64,000 nt of DNA from Octopus vulgaris (lineage: Eukaryota): the NCBI GenBank assembly GCA_951406725.2, contig OX597818.1, forward strand, positions 49,600,001 through 49,664,000, in the 5' to 3' direction. The first letter of the stretch is position 1; each line of letters starts with the position of its first letter. Positions 10,898-58,170 of this stretch are shown here, one piece after another. A program made the translations under genes and the position numbers. Under the pieces are notes generated by a model. It did no database searches. It was given only the letters and a program-made list of their open reading frames with translations, and was not told the origin of the DNA.

Positions 10898-11204
10898 ATA
10901 GTTGTGAAAAAAGAACATCAAAGATCCTTCCTGAGCTATAGGCCCATAAGGATTCTGTAGCATACATATTCCTCCGTTGGACAAGATGCCAGTCCATTGT
11001 AAGATCACTTATTTTTGCCAGCTAAGTGGACTAGAGTGAAATGAAATGTTTTACTCAAAAACACAACACACCACCCAGTCGAGGAATTGAAACCACAATC
11101 TTACAATCATGGGTGCAACACACTAAGCCATGCATTTCCCCAGTACTTATTGCAATAAATATTAAATGTCTTAGTCTTTTAGATAAATAAACAGAGCATG
11201 ATCA

Positions 11205-14692: not shown

Positions 14693-15580
14693 GAATAATA
14701 TAATCTTCGATATACTGTGTCTGAATGGAAAACAGGATGATTGTTGTCAAAATACCTTAGCTCACAGGCTTCTGGATCAGAGCTGACCTGGGGCTAAACA
14801 ATTACAACACACACACACACACATATTAATGCATGTTTTTATGTTCACTTATATAAAAGAGGTTTTACATTAACAGGAAAGATTACTCCATACTTTTGTA
14901 GAGTACAAATTTATTATTCACAAACAGAAATAGTACTGACAGTGACTTCGAAGTTTCGGCCGGTTATTTCAGAGGGGCCATTGCTTACTTTAGCTATTAC
15001 AAATGAGAAACAGTAATAATCATAACCTTCTGGAGCTCATTCTTCTTCGCCCCACATTTTTTTCTCAGTAGCTACTTCTATCTTACTCTCTTTCTCTTTC
15101 TATCTCTGTTTCTCTCTCTCTCATTCATTAATTTTTCCTTCTTTTCCTCCCCTCCTGTTTCTTGTTAATTCCCTCCTCCTCTCTCTCTCCTGTCCCCTAT
15201 TTCCCTCTGTCCCCCTGTTTTTCTGTATCTGACTACCTTCTCATTGTCTCTAGATAACACACATGGAAACATTTTCATTTTATGGCTTACTTAGTCAGAG
15301 CCGAATTGGAAATGCCCATGGTAATTTTAAAGGGCCTTTGAGACTGGTGTAGGGGAAGAAAGAAAGATCTTGTCATCTTCCAACAGGAGACCTGGTCTAA
15401 GTGCTTAATGCACAATAAATGCTCCCAATGGACAGATTGAATCTACCATAATCAGTGAACAGTTTTATAATAATCTCTGATGGTATTTATCCTTTACTCA
15501 TTCTAACTCCTGTTCACTTACTTTCTGTTTTACGGCCTTCCCTATCTTCACCTCCATCACCAACTCTTTAGTTGCCAATA

Positions 15581-15914
15581 AGTGAGGACGCGTGGCTTAG
15601 TGGTTAGGGCATTCGGCTCATGATCGTAAGGTTGTGAGTTCGATTCCCGGCGACGCGTTGTGTCCTTGAGCAAGACACTTTATTTCACGTTGCTCCAGTC
15701 CACTCAGCTGGCAAAAATGAGTTGTATTTGTATTTCAAAGGGTCAGCCTTGTCACTCTCTGTGTCACGCTGATTATCCCCGAGAACTACGTTAAGGGTAC
15801 ACGTGTCTGTGGAATGCTCAGCCATTTGCACGTTAATTTCACGAGCAAGCTGTTCCGTTGATCGTATCAGCTGGGACCCTCGTCGTCGTAACCGGCGGAG
15901 TCTTTTTTTTTTTA
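15581..15914 (+). mobile_element. tRNA-derived SINE family E with oligo-T tail
   Basis: Head gtggcttagtggttagggc..gagttcgattccc, core gtgtccttgagcaagacactt, 11-bp TSD agttgccaata; decayed copy at about 41955-42150. Confidence 0.88.
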
Positions 15915-16100
15915 AGTTGCCAATAGTGTTGTAGTTCATTTTTAAAACCCTTTCGTTACCGTATTTATTTTGAGATGCTCTATATTTCATTCAGTTAATT
16001 TTAATTATAACGAGGAATTTAGTAAAAGAACTTAGTTATCATTAGGCTTGTGTTGGGAACATAAATTGTGACTAAGGTTTGGTGGAAGATTTTAATTCAA

Positions 16101-16640
16101 TATTGTTGTATTTAGGAATGGTCATTTTGCCAGTTTAGCCAATAAAAACACATGCACTATATATTTGATGTTACTTTGCTTCAACGTTATTTATTTTTTA
16201 TTTTTTACATTAATCTTAATCTTATTTTGACCAGAGTTCTTTCGTCACACTCCTGTGACCTCATCAGTGGTCCTTTGCTTTTTCTTTCTTATTTGTGTGT
16301 CTCTCCTTACTAATGGTCAGCCATTTTGTATTTTGTATTCCTATTGTATACAAAATGGCTGACCGTTTGTAAGGAGAGGCACACAAATAAGAAAGAAGAA
16401 AGCAAAGGACCACTGATGCGGTCACAGGATTGTGATGAAAGAACTCTGGCCGAAATAAGATTAAGATTAAGATTAATGTAAAAAATAAATAATGCTGAAG
16501 CAAAGTAACACCAAATATATAGTGCATGTGTTTTTATTAGCTAAACTAGCAAAAATGACCATTCTTAAATACAACAATATCTGTTTCAACACACGATTTC
16601 ACATCAAAAATCTTGCAAAACAAATATATTTAATTCAATA
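16101..16640. mobile_element. Fold-back (palindromic) Penelope-like insert
   Basis: Inverted arms of about 235 bp (16101-16579), a unique tail of about 50 bp, and a duplicated tttaattcaata at both junctions. Confidence 0.8.
16229..16272 (-). ncRNA. Minimal type I hammerhead ribozyme motif
   Basis: Minus strand: gacca-CTGATGA-g-gtcac-aggagt-gtgac-GAAA-gaac-TC-tggtc. Stem I is 5 bp, stem II is 5 bp, the core is intact and stem III is very short. Confidence 0.75.
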
Positions 16641-17355
16641 CTTATGAAAGTAAGACATTTGTACTACAGAGCCAGAGGCAGTTTTGGCCGGGTTGGTATC
16701 AAAAGGGTTAATGTGTTACAGTTTACTTTCATTCGTTTCTTTGAAGGCAAGTCTGACCATGAGGAAATATTGCCTTGCTTAGAAATAGGTGAGGATGGAG
16801 ACAAGAAAGGCATCTAACTGTAGAAAATCTGCCTCCATAAAGTCTGTCTGACCCATGCAAATATGGATAGGTAGACATTAAAATGATGTTGATGATGATA
16901 ATAATGATTAAATTATAATTTAAGATTTTAAGCAAAGATTATGATTTAAGTTTTAAAGATTTTTCTGCAATACAACGATAGACATGAAAGCAAATGAGAT
17001 GATATTATTAGCGGAAGAAACTCTTTATTTATCTGACAAATTAATCAGACACCAGCCACATGGAAAAACAATAGTTAAGTTGGTGTTATCACAAAGCTAA
17101 TTAGAAATAATTATGTAGGAGGCAAAGACAATATCATTCAATAACTAATATTATTTTAATCATTCTGGCATGCATGGGAGACAAAATATCAACTTCACAT
17201 TATTTGTCGAGGAAGCAATGGGAGCATCGCTATGTAAATGTAAACTACTGTTGTTGAGCTGCTGTAAAAATTGGCACATTTTTTAGAGAATAAATTACTC
17301 AGTGGTGTCATCTGCATGAGAAACAATAGTCAAGTTAATGACAACATATATAATA

Positions 17356-32791: not shown

Positions 32792-33011
32792 CCCTTTCAT
32801 TACTGTATTTATTTTGAGATGCTCTCTGTTTCTTTCAATTACTTTAAATATAACAAAGAATTTAGTAGAATAACTTATTTATCATTCAGCTAGTGTTAGG
32901 GACATAAATTGTGACTAATGTTTGGCGGAAAATTTTAATTCAAAACTTATGAAAACAAGGCATTTGTACTCAGAGCCAGAGCCAGTTTCAGCCGGGTCTG
33001 TAACAAAAGGG
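32792..33011. mobile_element. piggyBac-type MITE (220 bp)
   Basis: TTAA|CCCTTT..AAAGGG ends; same family as 15948-16707. Confidence 0.85.
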
Positions 33012-34251: not shown

Positions 34252-34691
34252 CAGTGGTTCTCAACCATTTTCTGCGTATGAACTCATTTGATTCCAATTT
34301 TACTCTACTGGACCTATATAACCATTTTCTGTATATGTATATATATAGTTAATCCAAACATGAAAACACAAAGAGAAAACACAGCAACGTGGGGACATGG
34401 AACAAGTATAATGTTATTGGACGCTCAGAAAAGGAAAGAAAGAGGATTTAACGTTTCGAGCGGAGCTCTTCGTCAGAAACATAGGAAAAGGAAAGATCCA
34501 AGGAAGGAAATATATATTTATATATAAATCTTACTGTATTTTATTAATTAAATATCATTAGGAATTGCATTTAAAAAATTAAAATATTTTGTGTATTGTA
34601 AAAGTATAACCGATTTAATGCCCTTACATTTTAACAACAAAATCTTATATGGACCCTGGAGGGTCATGTTGACCCTGGCTGAGAACTACTG
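34252..34691. mobile_element. hAT-type MITE with a nested insert
   Basis: TIRs cagtggttctcaacc and ggctgagaactactg; 8-bp TSD ttctaaat/ttctaaaa (7/8 match). Confidence 0.82.
34447..34480 (-). ncRNA. Minimal type I hammerhead ribozyme motif (Penelope type)
   Basis: Minus strand: ttt-CTGACGA-a-gagc-tcc-gctc-GAAA-cg-TT-aaa. The core is intact and stem III is the palindromic aacgtt. Confidence 0.75.
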
Positions 34692-37659: not shown

Positions 37660-39148
37660 ATCCCTTGTCTTGGTGTTATCAAGTACCTGTAGAAAAAGGC
37701 TTTAACTCCCAAGGACATTCATGCTGACATGATTGTTAGATTAGGGGATGGTGCTCCAGCTTTATCAATAGTTCAAAAGTGGGCAGCTGAATGTAGGAAG
37801 GGAAGGGTCTTGAAGGTAACCCCAAGATGTGGATGTCCTATAACTCTCATCATTAAGGAAAATATTGATCATGTTCACCACATGCTGATGGATGACAGGC
37901 AATCAGCTATAAATCAAATAGCATATCCTGTAAAAGATTTTTTTTTATCTTTTATCTTTTATTTGTGTCAGTCATTTGACTGCGGCCATGCTGGAGCACC
38001 ACCTTTATTCGAGCAAATCAACCCCAGGACTTATTCTTTGTAAGCCCAGTACTTATTCTATCGGTCTCTTTTGCCAAACCGCTAAGTGACAGGGACATAA
38101 ACACACCAGCATCAATTGTCAAGCAATGCTAGGGGGACAAACACAGACACACAAACATACATTCACATATATATACATATATACAACGGGCTTCTTTGTG
38201 TTTCTGTCTACCAAATCCACTCACAAGGCTTTGGTCAGCCCGAGGCTATAGTAGAAGACACTTGCCCAAGGTGCCACGCAGTGGGACTGAACCCAAAACC
38301 ATGTGGCTAGTAAGCAAGCTACTTAGCACACAGCCACTCCTGCACCTATATTGTGCAGAATATTCTCAATATTCTGCACAAAACACTTGACATGACAAAG
38401 TTTTCTGCCACATCTGGCACCTAATCAAAAGCACACCAGGCTAATCACATCATGGAAAAATCTGATATTGTTTGAAGTAGATTCAGCCGGTTTCATTGAA
38501 CATTTCCTAACCCTGGATGAGTGTTGTGTTCATCACTTTGAACCAGAGACAAAGTAACAATCCATGCAGTGGAAACATTCCTCCTCACCCACTCCAAAGA
38601 AGGTCAAGATTGTTTCATCTACAGAGAAGGTGAGGGCCTCAGTTTTTAGGAATGCAAAAGGCATTGTGTTTATTGACTATATTCAAAAGGGCCACACCAT
38701 CAATGGAGAGTACTATATCAACTTACTGAGACAGTTACAAAAGGCTTTCAAGACCAAATGCCCAGGAAATGATGAAAGGGGTCTTGTTTCATCAGGACAA
38801 TGCTCTAGCACACAAGTTCTTGGTTTCAATGACTACAGTGTGTGACTGTGGCTTTGAACTGGTTGATCACTCTCCCTATTCTCCTGATTTGGTCCCATCT
38901 GACTATTATTTGATCCTCAACCATTATTGCAGTGATGACGACACCATATATGTGGTTGATGAGTTTTTTGGGGTTTTCTTGACCAACAAGAAGAAAGCGT
39001 CTTTATCAATGGGATCCAAGCACTGCAACACTGATGGAAGAAATGTGTGGACTGCAAGGGGGTCTATGTTGAAAAATAAGCCTTATTTGGTCATATTCCA
39101 TGAGAGTATCTTGGTCAGCCCATGTACTTTTCAGCCAACTTTTGTATA
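37660..39148 (+). pseudogene. Decayed mariner transposase, interrupted by SINE A (37946-38348, minus)
   Basis: ORF fragments: GDGAPALSIVQKWAAE (HTH), MQWKHSSSPTPKK..KGIVFIDY..GHTINGEYY, GVLFHQDNA..H and HSPYSPDLVPSDYYL (YSPDL motif). Confidence 0.92.
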
Positions 39149-39259
39149 TAGTTTACATAAATATATATATATATAAACAATTCCTGAGCATTATACTAAT
39201 ACATCTGTTTGTTTTGTACACCACCTGTCTTCATCTTTTGTTTCTTTCATGAACTCTCC

Positions 39260-40369: not shown

Positions 40370-41207
40370 TTATGAAATTATTGTATATGGTGCTCAGGTG
40401 CACCACAGCTTGTCAAAAGTATGTATAAAGCATATGCATTAATGTACAAATGTCTGGAAAGCGAACAATGTATGAGTCAGATACATGCTTGCGTGTGTAT
40501 GGAGGGGAGAAAATCAGGTGTAGTGTTGGCGAATCTCAGGAAGCATGGAAGTTTTGAAGGATGCAGTGCTCCGACAACTAACAACCGATGCCGGCAGTTT
40601 GTTCCATGCTTCAGCAACTCTCAGCATGAAAAATGTTTCCAAAAGTCATGGAGGCTGTGCTGTTTTCTGACTTTGTAACCATGCCCACGGGTGTTAGACA
40701 GGTGGAGTTTGAAAAGGTTCTCAGAGTTATTGTTTGTAAGATGGTTAATAATTTTATGGGTGTCTGCCAAGTCAGCTGCCAGACGTTGGAGTTTCAATGT
40801 ATCGATGCCCAGGGAAGTAAGGTGTTCAGAATATGGCAAATACCTGATGGAGGGTATTCTCTTGGTTGCACATCGCTGAACGGTTTCCAGACGATTAATA
40901 TCCTGGGCAAGATAGGGGTTCCAGACCGGTGATGCAAATTCGAGGTGAGGCCGCACCATAGCTATATAAAACCTCAGATAGATAGCTGGAGAGTAGCTCA
41001 CAAAGGACTTGGTAAGTGATGCCAAGACACCCTCAGCCTTCTTGGCAATTTTAGTAATGTGTTTTGTCCAACGTAAATCGCTGTCAACAATAATGCCCAG
41101 GTCACGTTCACAAGAAGACTTTTTGAGATTAGTGTTGTGGGGGGAGTAAGTAGACGCTGGGTTTTTCCTCCCAAAATGCATGGTGGTACATTTGTCCACA
41201 GCCAGTC
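40370..41207 (-). pseudogene. CR1-clade LINE 3' fragment (RT C-terminal region)
   Basis: ORF 40621-41253: KC..MHFGRKN, ERDLGIIVDSDL, VRPHLEFASPVWNPY, LETVQRCATK, TRGHGYK. Confidence 0.92.
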
Positions 41208-42309
41208 TTCTTTCTTGCCAGCTACTGTCAAACCATTTAATCCATCTCTGCATGGAAGAAGGATTTTAAATGATGATGATGATGGTGATGGTGATGATGA
41301 TGATGGTGATGATGATGACAACAACGATGACAGTGATATGTGTGTTTGTTTTTTTTTAGCCATCTATTTCCATGTAAGCATGGATTAAATGAATATATTC
41401 TCAAGGCTTTAATTTTTTTTACAATTGGACGCCTTGCCTGTTTCTGATTCTTATTAACTGTTCTTCAAGTCTTTAAAGGTGCAAAGCCAGCAGATGACCT
41501 GTTGACAGGGGAAACAGCAGTAAAGGCACTGCCTCAAGCTGAGTGGGTTGTTCAGAGAATATAAGCAAACACAGTCATACAAGCACAATCATATGCACAT
41601 ACATGCACGCATGCACATGCGCACATACACACATACACACACAGATGTTTACATGTATGTAAATATCTATGTTAGCTCCTGGTAAATTCTTCTATGTATG
41701 TGTGTGCATATATATGAGAGCATGTATGTATATGTGTGTGTATGTATGTTTGTGTACATATGTGCATCTGTATATATATATATGGGTGTGTGTATATGTG
41801 TGTGTATGTCTCTCAGTCACTTTGATACCATGGAAACAAAGATAAGCTCCAGCCTAATGGGTTTGTAGGCTCAAGACAGATTTTATCTTTTCTTAATAAT
41901 ATATATATATAGACTTATGTTTTTAATATAATGTGTGTGTGTGGGAGTTCTGTGAAGGCATTTGGCTCAGTGGTTAGGGTATTCAGCTCACAATCACAAG
42001 GTCATGAGTTCAATATCTAGTGGTGGATTGTATCCTTGAGCAAGGCAATTTATCTCATGTCTACTCAGCTGGCAAAAATGAATTGTACCTGTTCTGTTGA
42101 TCGGATTAACAGGAATACTCTCTGCTGTGACTAACAGAGTGTCAGTGGAAAAAATATATACTCTTTTACTTGTTTCAGTCATTTGACTGTGGCCATGCTG
42201 GAGCACTGCCTTTAGTCGAGGAAATCAATCCCAGGACTTATTCTTTGTGAGCCTAGTACTTATTCTATCGGTCTCTTTTTCCTGAACTGCTAAGTTATGG
42301 GGACACTCA

Positions 42310-49194: not shown

Positions 49195-50049
49195 TAGGTT
49201 GTATTCAGTTAAGTATCATCATGTAGACCATTTTTGCAACAGTGGGTCACAGACTGATCCCTCTGTAATTCCCAGTATCACTTAGGTTTCCAGTTTTCGG
49301 CAGCGATAGCAAGTCTATCTCAGACCATTGTTCTGGCTTCTCATTGTCATTTAGTAGTTTGTTTGCAAATTCAAGGATGATGTCATCTAAATCACACCTT
49401 TTTAGTACTTCTGGTGGGATGTTGTGAGGACCAGTTTGTTTTACTTTTTTTAGGTTACTTGTAGCTCTTTCTATTTCTTGTTTTGTGAAGTCTCCATCCT
49501 CGATTTGCAAACCATTGAGTATCGTTGCTAATTCTTCATTTTCTGTTTCACTGTCAACTTCTGGATCCTTCCCAAGTAAGGATTCCCAAGAAATGAGTGT
49601 ACCACTTCTTGATTCTCACATCCTTTGATTTCCCTTTGATGATTGTTACCGGCGTCACCTTACTGGCATTTGTGCATGTGCTAGTAGGGTGCCAAGAGCA
49701 CCATCCGAGCATGATCGTTGCCAGAGCAGCCAGCTGGCTTCCATGCCAGTGGCACGTAAAAGGGCACCATTCAAGCATGATCGTAACCAATGTCGCTTCA
49801 CTGGTACCTGTGCCGGTGGCACGTGTAAAAAGGTTTAAGCGAGGTCATTGCCAGTACCGCCTGACTGGCCCCCGTGCCGGTGGCACGTAAAAAGCACCCA
49901 TTAAACTCTCGGAGTGGTTGGCGTTAGGAAGGGCATCCAGCTGTAGAAACTCTACCAGATCAAAATTGGAGCCTGGTGCAGCCATCTGGTTCGCCAGCCC
50001 TCAGTCAAAATCGTCCAACCCATGCTAGCATGGAAAGCGGACGTTAAAC

Positions 50050-50082
<33 letters not shown>

Positions 50083-50520
50083 CCCCTGCTTTGCAACCAG
50101 TGATGGAGTTAATCCGCCTCCAGCTTTCTCCGTGTTTACTTTTTGCACCTGCATTTTCGACCTGGGAGATCATTTTATCCAGTTCCTCTTCTTGAATCTC
50201 TTGGTACACCTGTTTTAGACCTTCTTTCTTTCTTTGTGAAGTTTGTTTTGTATCGTTGTTGGCAGCTCTTTGATAGTTGCTAAATGCCTCTTGTACTTCA
50301 CTGCATGCTTTTTCTACCCTAGTATCATCAGCTAACTTTCTCCATTTCATCCTCTTCTTTATCAGTATCAGTTTTGCTGCCGCTTCATCATTTGATTGCA
50401 CAATCTTGCCATATTGCTCTGTAAAAGCATCCCTGTTTTTGGATAGTTCAGCAAATCTGTTATGCACTGTAACCGTATAAAGCTGTTGAAGTTCTGTATT
50501 TCGCAATGTAGACCAATCAT
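49195..50520 (-). pseudogene. RTE/RTEX-clade LINE, inverted 5' part (EN-RT linker to RT domain 1), interrupted by family C (49640-50081)
   Basis: ORFs YDWSTLRN..VHNRFAEL and FTKQEIERA..GPHNIPPEVLK..LPKTGNLSDTGNYRGISL. Confidence 0.88.
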
Positions 50521-52024
50521 AGCAAATCAAAATGGGTTCAAATCAGGACGATCAACAATATCTCACTTTGTCACATTTAGAAGACTGCTAGAGGGAGTTA
50601 AGAATCATAATAGGAAGGCTATCATTATCTATGTAGACTTTAAAAAGGCTTTTGATTCAATACATAGAGGAATGATGAAGATACTTAAAGCATATGATAT
50701 TCTACAAGAATTATGAGAGCAATAGGTAAGCTGTATGAGAACATCAGAGTGAAAGTGATCACTACTGATGGAGAGACAGAATACTTTGAAGTCAAAGCTG
50801 GAATCTCTTGTGAAAGGTAGAAGAGTCCAGTTTGCTGGACATTGTTGTAGAGCTGAAAACGAGGTAATTTCTACTCTTCTCCTCTGGAAGCCATCTGCTC
50901 GTGATACCAGAGGGCGCACACTCTCCTACCCTGATGTAATCTCCAGGGATACAGGCATCCAGCAACAGGACCTCCGTAATGCTATGATGGACCGTGAAGT
51001 CTGGCGTAACATAGTCTCATTGTCTCATAGTCCATTGTCTCAACCACGGTCGAACAATGATGATGATGATAGGGCAACATGCTAGCACCTTATCTCTTCG
51101 CCATCGTTCTGGACTATGTAATGCTTAGAACATGCGAGAACAAATTAGAACTGAGATTCAAACTGCATAGGCAAAAAAGTAGATGGCATCAAGCAGTAAC
51201 AGTAACTGACCTAGACTATGCTGATGACCTGGCATTACTAACAGAGAGGACAGATCAGGCACAGAAGGTGCTGAGCAGATTAGAGCAGGAATTGGGGAAG
51301 GTAGGATTGTACTGTAACGCAAAGAAAACAGTTGCAAGTATTCAACCACAAAATGCCTGTATCAGTGAAAGTGAGAAACAGTAAGTCTCTGAAGGTAGTT
51401 GAACAATTCAAATACCTTGATGCATGGACACAAAGTACTGAAAAAGACATTGTCTCAAGGAAAGCTCTTGCCTGGAGCACATGCCATAAATTGAGAAATG
51501 CATGGAGTTCAAAGTTAGCAAGGAAATTGAAAGTGAGATTGTTTCTGGCAACAGTGGAGTCTGGCAACAGTGGAGTCTGTTCTTCTATAACATGGATGCT
51601 CACTAAAGCATTGAAGAAGCAGTTTGACGGTTTTATATGAGGATGCTTAGAATTGCACTCAATGTCTCCTGGAAGAGTCATACTACAAACATCGACTTAT
51701 ACTAGGGACTACCAAAAATAACATTGAAGACGCAACATAGAAGGATGAGGCTAGCTGGATGCTGCATCAGACATACTGATGAAATTGCTAACAAGCTAGT
51801 GCTCTGGCAACCAATGAAAGGAAGAACCAGGAGAGGAAGGAGGAAGACGACCTAGATCGACAACTTGCTGTAGGATATTAGTATGAAAGGGGTACAGGAG
51901 CTGAGGACCATTATGGAAGTTCAAGATAAATGGGCAAAACATGTGGAAACAGCCTTGGGGCATCTTGAGGGATAACATATATATATATATATATATTGTC
52001 TCAACCATGGTCGAACAATGATGA

Positions 52025-57074: not shown

Positions 57075-58170
57075 TTTGGTCATCCCTTAATAATGTGGTT
57101 TTTTTATACTTCTTTTATTTTTCAGAATTAAGATAAACAAAGTTTTTTAAATCTAAAATATGCTCTCCTTCATTTTCTACAATGCTCTTCCATCTCTCTG
57201 GTAGACTTGCAAGGCTCTCTTCCAAAATTCACTTATCTGTGGTGAAAAATACTCCTCCAGTACTGTTCTGACCTCATCTACACAATTCAAATTTATGTGA
57301 CCGAGCATTATCCTGATGGAAGAACACCTTTCATCTTGAAACCAAAGATAGTCATTTTTCTTCTAGCGCTGACTTAAGCCACTCAAGCTGCTCACAATAA
57401 ATCTCCTTTGTTATCATTTGGTTTGGGTTTAAAAGTTTAAAGTGGATTAAATCTTTCATATCCTACCAAACAGATAACAACACCTTACATGGGTGAAAAC
57501 CTTCTTTAGCCTGGGATGCCAGCGCTTAACATTTTTATAGAGAATCTATCTCTTGTCACCAGTCAATATTCAGTCCAAAAATGGTTCATTCACAAGACTT
57601 GGCAGCAAAGATCACACATTCTCTCTCTGCATGTGATTAGACTCAGAAAGTTTGTGAGGAACTCATTGACCCAACATGCTGACTTTTCTGATCGCATGCA
57701 GGTGTCGATGAATGGTTGAATGACCAAATCTGAGTTTCTCTGCTAGTTCCTCAACAATTATGATAGGATTTTGTTCCACCAGAGTTTGCAGGACATCCCC
57801 GTTGAGCTCTACAGATCTTCCAGGAGTAGGCTCATCTTCTTGGCTGTAATTTCTGGCACGGAATTTCTTGAACCACCGTTGACACAGGCTTACACTTATT
57901 GTCTGATCCTCATATACTGCATTAATATTCCTCACACTTTCTGTTGCCTTGTTGCCTTTATTGAACTCAAAGCAAAATATGCCAAATATGCTCCTTTGGA
58001 AAATAATTGTTAAAATCGAACTGCACTCTTCAAAACTTGCACTAAGAATAAGGACACAGTAAAATTACTACCTGCTTTTATAGCAAGTTGATGCAAGTAG
58101 TTTATCCCATCCCCTTCCTTTTTTTAGTTCATGCAATTGAAAAAAACATGTCATTTATGAGATGACCCAA
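57075..58170 (-). mobile_element. Decayed mariner transposon with TIRs
   Basis: TIRs tttggtcatccc and gagatgacccaa flanked by TA; ORF RNINAVY..CQRWFKKFR..DEPTPGRSVE and GVFFHQDNAR. Confidence 0.88.

What the first reader, a model, noticed from the sequence alone, without database searches (positions are those of the whole stretch)
16101..16640. 480-bp fold-back insert with a hammerhead ribozyme motif in each arm, nested in a piggyBac MITE
Seen: comparison with the empty MITE (32792-33011) defines the insertion, with a 12-bp junction duplication (tttaattcaata). The left arm encodes an intact minimal hammerhead on the minus strand (gacca-CTGATGA-g-gtcac..gtgac-GAAA-gaacTC-tggtc). The right arm has the mirror copy on the plus strand with a mutated core (CTGATGC). 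A short unique tail makes the element asymmetric, unlike a MITE. Inference: an inverted pseudo-LTR product of a Penelope-like retroelement; a transcript in either direction would carry a ribozyme motif and a dsRNA stem of about 235 bp.
Basis: partly seen in the sequence, partly recalled or inferred. Interest (0 to 1): 0.75.

Follow-up and report, generated by a model that had tools for sequence, protein, structure and literature searches.

The report
Penelope retrotransposon stub, altered ribozyme core
This 530-base hairpin is two back-to-back ends of a known kind of jumping gene (Penelope type), likely written into both cut DNA strands from two fixed start points, and the family's youngest, most numerous copies carry a ribozyme core change that is predicted to weaken self-cutting.

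Summary
A 529-bp insert (16100-16628, TSD 8-12 bp) sits in a TTAA/CCCTTT MITE; its arms are head-to-head and about 90% alike, with one hammerhead motif each. It is not a separate family: it is the 3' end of a protein-coding Penelope-like element (PLE) found intact in this genome (pLTR, 1309-aa RT plus GIY-YIG ORF, pLTR). The 'tail' is the start of that ORF, and head-to-head copies range from about 270 bp to 8.9 kb. This anatomy is published, and the scan found it before on other DNA (690 notes, at least 48 genomes). In 46 of 47 classifiable pairs one arm is tailed and one is not. Here the tail-less arm is also the longer one inward, so one cDNA folding back cannot make it; two priming events are likely. 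It is the family's main allele (2753 exact copies versus 172 with canonical A9), carried by the younger subfamilies and by the intact element. The ribozyme is probably weakened and not needed for spread; cleavage is untested.

The parts
15948..16707 (.). Host MITE with CCCTTT/AAAGGG ends and TTAA on the right (piggyBac-type by recalled end motif), split by the insert
   Evidence: loose ends at 15946-15948 and 16712
16091..16102 (+). Left copy of the target-site duplication (last 3 bases shared with the element end)
16100..16349 (-). Tail-less arm: 5'-truncated PLE 3' end ending at the short 3' site (family position 223); 18 nt longer at the inner end than the other arm; old-subfamily haplotype
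16229..16272 (-). Minimal type I hammerhead motif with canonical core (A9), extra base between 9 and 10.1, CUC triplet
   Evidence: features as in PMC4209133
16348..16349 (.). Head-to-head junction, 2-nt AT overlap, no foreign bases; lies in the family's breakpoint cluster (-20 to +20), the likely RNA 5' end
   Evidence: RNA start is inference
16348..16580 (+). Tailed arm, pLTR part; holds the parent's start codon near 16555
16408..16452 (+). Hammerhead motif with C at core position 9 (family majority allele) and a private C11.1 to T change
16581..16628 (+). Tail: continuation of the parent's ORF (about codons 9-25), ending at the long 3' site (family positions 270-284)
16629..16640 (+). Right copy of the target-site duplication

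Best explanation
The insert is a dead, doubly 5'-truncated insertion of an endonuclease-bearing Penelope-like retrotransposon, likely made when both cut target strands primed reverse transcription on the element's RNA at two fixed sites about 50-60 nt apart and the two cDNAs were joined head to head. Shown: parent element, arm anatomy, two 3' end sites, one long plus one short end per insertion, variable TSD, (TA)n preference. Inferred: two priming events, a shared RNA template, cDNAs running off near the RNA's 5' end (which makes many copies near-symmetric hairpins of about 500 bp), microhomology joining. The hammerhead is the ordinary pLTR motif; the lineage went from A9/C17 to C9/C17 to C9/U17 while it kept spreading, so self-cleavage is probably weakened and not required for insertion.
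For: Intact parent L094: identical pLTRs around a 1309-aa ORF, weak RVT_1 and GIY-YIG matches in the expected order (E 4.5e-4 and 4.7e-4), 99% to an Octopus vulgaris predicted protein. 3' ends of 152 arms: 76 at 219-229, 67 at 270-284, 9 elsewhere. Pairs: 34 of 37 long+short in the C9 census (3 unclassifiable), 12 of 13 in the A9 set; 46 of 47 classifiable, p = 3e-13 against 50%. In 16 of 32 simple junctions, this one included, the tail-less arm reaches further inward than the tailed arm (read), which one cDNA folding back cannot give. Arms share all diagnostic alleles in 35 of 46 pairs and 25 rare variants are shared by both arms in 15 of 57 pairs. 20 of 46 insertions have an arm ending at -20 to +20, against 1 and 4 in the flanking 40-nt bins (read). 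C9 2753 versus A9 172 exact 38-mers; median divergence 2.9%, 1.8%, 0.0% for A9/C17, C9/C17, C9/U17. PMC11167929: RT starts at two internal sites, both strands are cut and extended, hammerhead mutants do not affect insertion in vitro. PMC4075628: A9 changes cost 10-100 fold.
Against: Pfam matches are below the curated cut-offs and the whole protein gave none; no solved relative. One short+short pair and one long+long pair among the 20 selected fold-backs exist; 57 ends had no partner in the fetched DNA. Shared haplotypes are also expected from two RNAs of one source locus or from arm-to-arm conversion; 11 of 46 pairs differ at diagnostic sites, this copy among them (A9 left, C9 right). A-to-G excess among shared rare variants is not significant (6 of 25 versus 20 of 157, p = 0.21). 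The RNA start is not measured. The 10-100 fold figure is second-hand, for another minimal hammerhead, and not specific to C. 17 arms begin exactly at the predicted cut site, 5 of them of the youngest subfamily, so residual cleavage is not excluded.
Confidence: 0.8

Rival explanations
1. Same PLE origin, but the inverted arm is made by self-priming: one cDNA (or an antisense template, as proposed in PMC3846280) folds back and copies itself.
For: 6 of 32 simple junctions are symmetric within 3 nt and 10 have the tailed arm longer; arms usually share haplotype; PMC3846280 reads junction palindromes this way.
Against: In 16 of 32, including this copy, the tail-less arm is the longer and the other arm still carries the tail; some tailed arms hold tail sequence only (L061, L052, L112).
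Confidence: 0.12
2. The C9 motif is a working natural hammerhead variant, rescued by dimer formation or by the PLE protein, and cleavage still matters in vivo.
For: Stems I and II stayed unchanged across subfamilies; C9 is in the intact element and in runs of at least three organisms; 17 arms start at the cut site; PMC11167929 shows protein-assisted cleavage.
Against: A9 is a consensus core base (PMC3088659); loop 3 (GAAC) is not palindromic, so a dimer helix would hold two A-A mismatches; truncations at the cut site (18 pattern hits) do not stand out from neighbours (3, 11, 7, 19); no paper found for A9C or CUGAUGC.
Confidence: 0.2
3. The 500-bp hairpin is its own non-autonomous family (fold-back MITE or retrozyme) that is copied as a unit.
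For: Four copies on three contigs share the same centre (L014-L017).
Against: Centres otherwise differ per copy, sizes run continuously to kilobases and into the ORF, TSDs vary, one end always has the tail; a shared centre is expected at a palindromic microhomology near a common RNA end.
Confidence: 0.04

Closest known systems
EN+ Penelope-like insertions with an inverted 5'-truncated copy and one-sided tail (PMC8557442 Fig. 2 legend; Adineta vaga Pen2a_Av, PMC3846280)
   Same: pLTR holding the first codons of the ORF, head-to-head inverted copy, tail on one end, TSD of 8-15 bp, microhomology junction, asparagine-rich stretch in the ORF.
   Different: Tail is 47-61 nt rather than 30-40; this copy is a stub with no ORF body; asparagine-rich stretch lies before the RT here.
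Minimal hammerheads of metazoan PLEs (PMC4209133)
   Same: Type I, short stem I, 6-bp stem II, extra base between 9 and 10.1, G10.1-C11.1, vestigial stem III; that paper already notes dual motifs on opposite strands 100-700 bp apart.
   Different: Majority allele has C at position 9; loop 3 is not palindromic.
Poseidon element of Anolis (PAc), in vitro (PMC11167929)
   Same: Two RT start sites inside the ORF start that bound the tail; AT-rich targets.
   Different: Parent here has a CX4CxxC linker (Neptune/Nematis type) and the hammerhead lies about 100 nt upstream of the ATG; the paper does not show one long plus one short end per insertion.
Metazoan non-LTR retrozymes (bioRxiv 10.64898/2026.07.22.740005; PMC7229834 listing only)
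   Same: Type I hammerhead, derived from PLE pLTRs; this family also forms short tandem arrays.
   Different: This insertion is inverted, not tandem, and is made anew from the coding element.

Membership tests
EN+ Penelope-like element (C-terminal EN) | Single ORF with RT followed by GIY-YIG endonuclease | tested here: met
   Parent L094, 1309 aa open; RVT_1 E 4.5e-4 and GIY-YIG E 4.7e-4 on sub-regions, below curated cut-offs; RT and EN motifs read by eye
EN+ Penelope-like element (C-terminal EN) | pLTRs in partial tandem, containing the ORF start | tested here: met
EN+ Penelope-like element (C-terminal EN) | Inverted 5'-truncated copy and tail at one end | tested here: met
   46 of 47 classifiable pairs; tail longer than the published 30-40 bp
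EN+ Penelope-like element (C-terminal EN) | Variable-length TSD, AT-rich or (TA)n targets | tested here: met
   34 of 46 pairs abut (TA)n; 8 of the other 12 show 8-15-bp duplications
Neptune clade | CX2-5CxxC linker before the GIY-YIG domain | tested here: met
   C-TDNY-C-TV-C in P0001; definition from PMC8557442; shared with Nematis
Neptune clade | Placement in an RT tree with named reference elements | not tested
   No named PLE references among the 120 listed homologues; clade left as Neptune-like
Minimal type I hammerhead of PLEs | Core C3 U4 G5 A6 N7 G8 A9 / G12 A13 A14 A15.1 / U16.1 H17 in the left arm | tested here: met
Minimal type I hammerhead of PLEs | Same core in the right arm and in most family copies | tested here: not met
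   C at position 9: 2753 versus 172 exact copies
Minimal type I hammerhead of PLEs | Palindromic positions 15.2-16.2 allowing a dimer helix III | tested here: not met
   GAAC is not self-complementary (sequence)
Minimal type I hammerhead of PLEs | Self-cleavage | not testable with these tools
   Genomic truncation test at the cut site inconclusive
MITE / DNA transposon | Fixed TIRs at both ends and fixed-length TSD | tested here: not met
   One-sided tail, variable TSD, continuity into an RT ORF
Non-LTR retrozyme | Head-to-tail tandem units each with a hammerhead | tested here: not met
   This insert is head-to-head; tandem arrays occur only at other loci (L103, L105)

The most novel reading that the evidence does not exclude
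An octopus Penelope lineage replaced an invariant catalytic-core base of its hammerhead (A9 to C, then C17 to U) and afterwards produced its largest and youngest burst, with an intact ORF. It is a natural experiment showing that PLE hammerheads are dispensable passengers in vivo, or else the first abundant natural C9 hammerhead that still cuts with protein help; and its strict one-long-one-short ends record a dimer priming both target strands on one RNA.
Probability: 0.55. Interest if true: 0.55.

Novelty: new member of a known kind. Interest (0 to 1): 0.32.

Why it matters
The element itself is an ordinary by-product of a known retrotransposon class. Its family bears on two open questions stated in PMC8557442 and PMC11167929: what PLE hammerheads are for, and how the inverted copy and one-sided tail arise. 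The family offers matched natural alleles (A9/C17, C9/C17, C9/U17) and an intact coding copy, so both questions can be put to a direct test. It also seeds many hundreds of near-perfect palindromes up to several kb in an octopus genome, which would be ADAR substrates if transcribed (recalled: cephalopods edit RNA heavily; not shown here).

Tried and rejected
Rfam: no hammerhead model hit; the E-value list is miRNA models matching the hairpin. Pfam on the whole protein: 0 families; PDB sequence search: one chance hit. Cleavage footprint: arms starting exactly at the predicted cut gave 18 pattern hits (17 true truncations, 7 with the same TGG microhomology junction) against 3, 11, 7 and 19 at positions -5, -3, +2 and +4; pattern stringencies differ, no clear peak, inconclusive. 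Edited single template: A-to-G excess not significant. Expression: no RNA holder listed; contigs of guessed RNA runs cannot be assigned to this copy and showed no editing signal, which is no evidence either way. Two templates for this copy (A9 left, C9 right): only one clean diagnostic difference among 16, cannot be told from a single later mutation. Lunse et al. 2017 on PLE hammerhead dimers is not held; it and the supplements of PMC4209133, which I did not read, may already list position-9 variants. No host gene was identified around the insert; only a long-ORF listing was made.

Full report
Observation. The insert and its host are as described. The empty MITE (32792-33011) matches 15948-16100 and 16629-16707. 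The duplication TTTAATTCAATA stands at 16091-16102 and 16629-16640; four of its bases also fit the element's ends, so 8-12 bp. The arms are 16100-16349 and 16348-16580, joined over a 2-nt AT overlap without foreign bases; the apparent loop is 18 nt of extra upstream element sequence in the left arm. The hairpin folds at -330 kcal/mol, z = -41.6. The left arm has a complete minimal hammerhead core, the right arm has C at position 9. Rfam finds neither. In a read-through transcript stem II of either motif is predicted not to form (probability 0.0).

Family and parent. A DNA search of the own genome gave 3208 candidates, 40 scored. Exact 38-mer counts are 172 for A9 and 2753 for C9, reversed controls 0. 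Many C9 hits come as minus/plus pairs 120 bp to 4.5 kb apart. Fetching 16 such regions showed that the longer pairs hold the 3' part of one ORF, and L094 holds a whole element: pLTR with tail, an open 1309-aa ORF, and a second identical pLTR. [quoted passage not shown] Its closest protein is 99% identical and named Octopus vulgaris by its source. The start codon lies inside the arm, and the tail is the ORF's continuation, as described for Pen2a_Av (PMC3846280, passages read). The window holds no other piece of this element.

How the two-armed form arises. 3' ends are bimodal: of 152 arms, 76 end at 219-229, 67 at 270-284, 9 elsewhere; loose ends at the same two places appear in contigs of four organisms. 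I took a near-census of the first C9 hits on contig C1 (94 of the 100 listed places lie in fetched loci) and the first 30 A9 hits. One search gave 40 pair rows for C9; I dropped 3 second rows of the same insertion (L063, L112, L094), leaving 34 long+short, 0 short+short, 0 long+long and 3 unclassifiable. The A9 set gave 12 long+short and 1 short+short. That is 46 of 47 classifiable, p = 3e-13 against independent choice. Against this: one long+long copy among the 20 selected fold-backs (L009), and 57 ends without a partner in the fetched DNA. Of 47 insertions mapped, 32 have a simple junction (15 complex ones left out): the tail-less arm reaches further inward in 16 (this copy included), the tailed arm in 10, and 6 are symmetric. 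A cDNA that folds back cannot give a tailed arm when the longer arm lacks the tail, so two priming events are needed at least in those 16. This fits PMC11167929 (parts 1-2 of 4 read): two internal RT start sites, both strands cut and extended, a predicted dimer. Arms share all diagnostic alleles in 35 of 46 pairs (one row pairing a neighbouring older copy dropped) and 25 rare variants are shared by both arms in 15 of 57 pairs; this fits one RNA but also two RNAs of one source or later conversion. Inner ends cluster at -20 to +20 in 20 of 46 insertions, against 1 and 4 in the adjacent bins (read); I infer the RNA 5' end there (a YY1-like motif at that place is recalled, not tested), which would explain the many hairpins of about 500 bp. 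34 of 46 pairs abut (TA)n and 8 of the other 12 have 8-15-bp duplications.

The ribozyme. Arms fall into three classes with median divergence from their class majority of 2.9% (A9/C17, n = 46), 1.8% (C9/C17, n = 59) and 0.0% (C9/U17, n = 65), so A9 is the oldest. The intact element is C9/U17. In contigs of four runs the A9 share of depth is 18%, 16%, 13% and 60% (last one thin), so C9 likely predates the split of at least three organisms (depth is a rough measure). Both window arms carry the old haplotype; left A9 and right C9 may reflect two templates or one later change. A9 is in the consensus core (PMC3088659, passages) and changes there cost 10-100 fold (PMC4075628, part 1 of 2, citing earlier work). 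PMC4209133 (parts 1-2 of 4 read) describes the extra base, low in vitro activity and dual motifs on opposite strands; PMC8557442 (passages) suggests hammerheads may simply parasitise PLEs. A genomic test for cleavage was inconclusive: 18 hits at the cut site against 3, 11, 7 and 19 at four neighbouring positions. Searches for 'hammerhead' with 'A9C' or 'CUGAUGC' found no paper, and Penelope with twin priming gave 2 unrelated listings; Lunse et al. 2017 is not held and supplements were not read.

What the scan noted before. The same two-armed Penelope stubs and the twin-priming reading were reported on other DNA (690 notes in at least 48 genomes); I had reached this reading before the look-up, and the repeat is not independent support. 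One note's lead, shared A-to-G changes, was tested here and not significant (p = 0.21). The word CTGATGC was met in no note on this genome.

Verdict. The useful additions are the intact parent, the strict long+short pairing and the fixed core change in the youngest subfamilies. Interest 0.32; new member of a known kind.

Noticed in passing
window 34454-34476 (-): A second, unrelated minimal hammerhead motif with canonical core and extra base (4-bp stem II), single copy in the window; probably the pLTR of another PLE family.
   Followed up: partly
L103 (C14, period about 340 bp) and L105 (C6, period 248 bp): Three-unit head-to-tail arrays of the pLTR end of this family, each with the A9 motif region: retrozyme-like tandem forms.
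   Followed up: partly
L091 852-5685; L092; L093: Near-perfect palindromes of 4.3-4.9 kb (arms about 99% alike) made of two truncated copies; L094 is an 8.9-kb insertion with a full copy, a partial tandem and an inverted copy.
   Followed up: yes
P0001 residues about 245-510: Long asparagine/serine-rich stretch in frame before the RT, recalling the N-rich inserts of Adineta Penelope ORFs (PMC3846280).
   Followed up: no
family positions 162-180 and 197-251: Tailed arms often stop 100-115 nt from their start, or hold little more than the tail, as if the trailing RT stalls behind the leading one.
   Followed up: partly
window 15561-15900: tRNA-like SINE copy just left of the MITE, with weaker relatives at 41963-42087 and 11007-11111; SINE label by recall.
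   Followed up: no
window 38730-39173 (+), 57666-58064 (-), 40624-41265 (-), 49955-50542 (-): Open frames that look like mariner transposase and LINE fragments by eye; not scanned.
   Followed up: no
L068/L069 and L140/L141: Pairs of loci with the same insertion layout 19 kb and 203 kb apart, likely local duplications.
   Followed up: no
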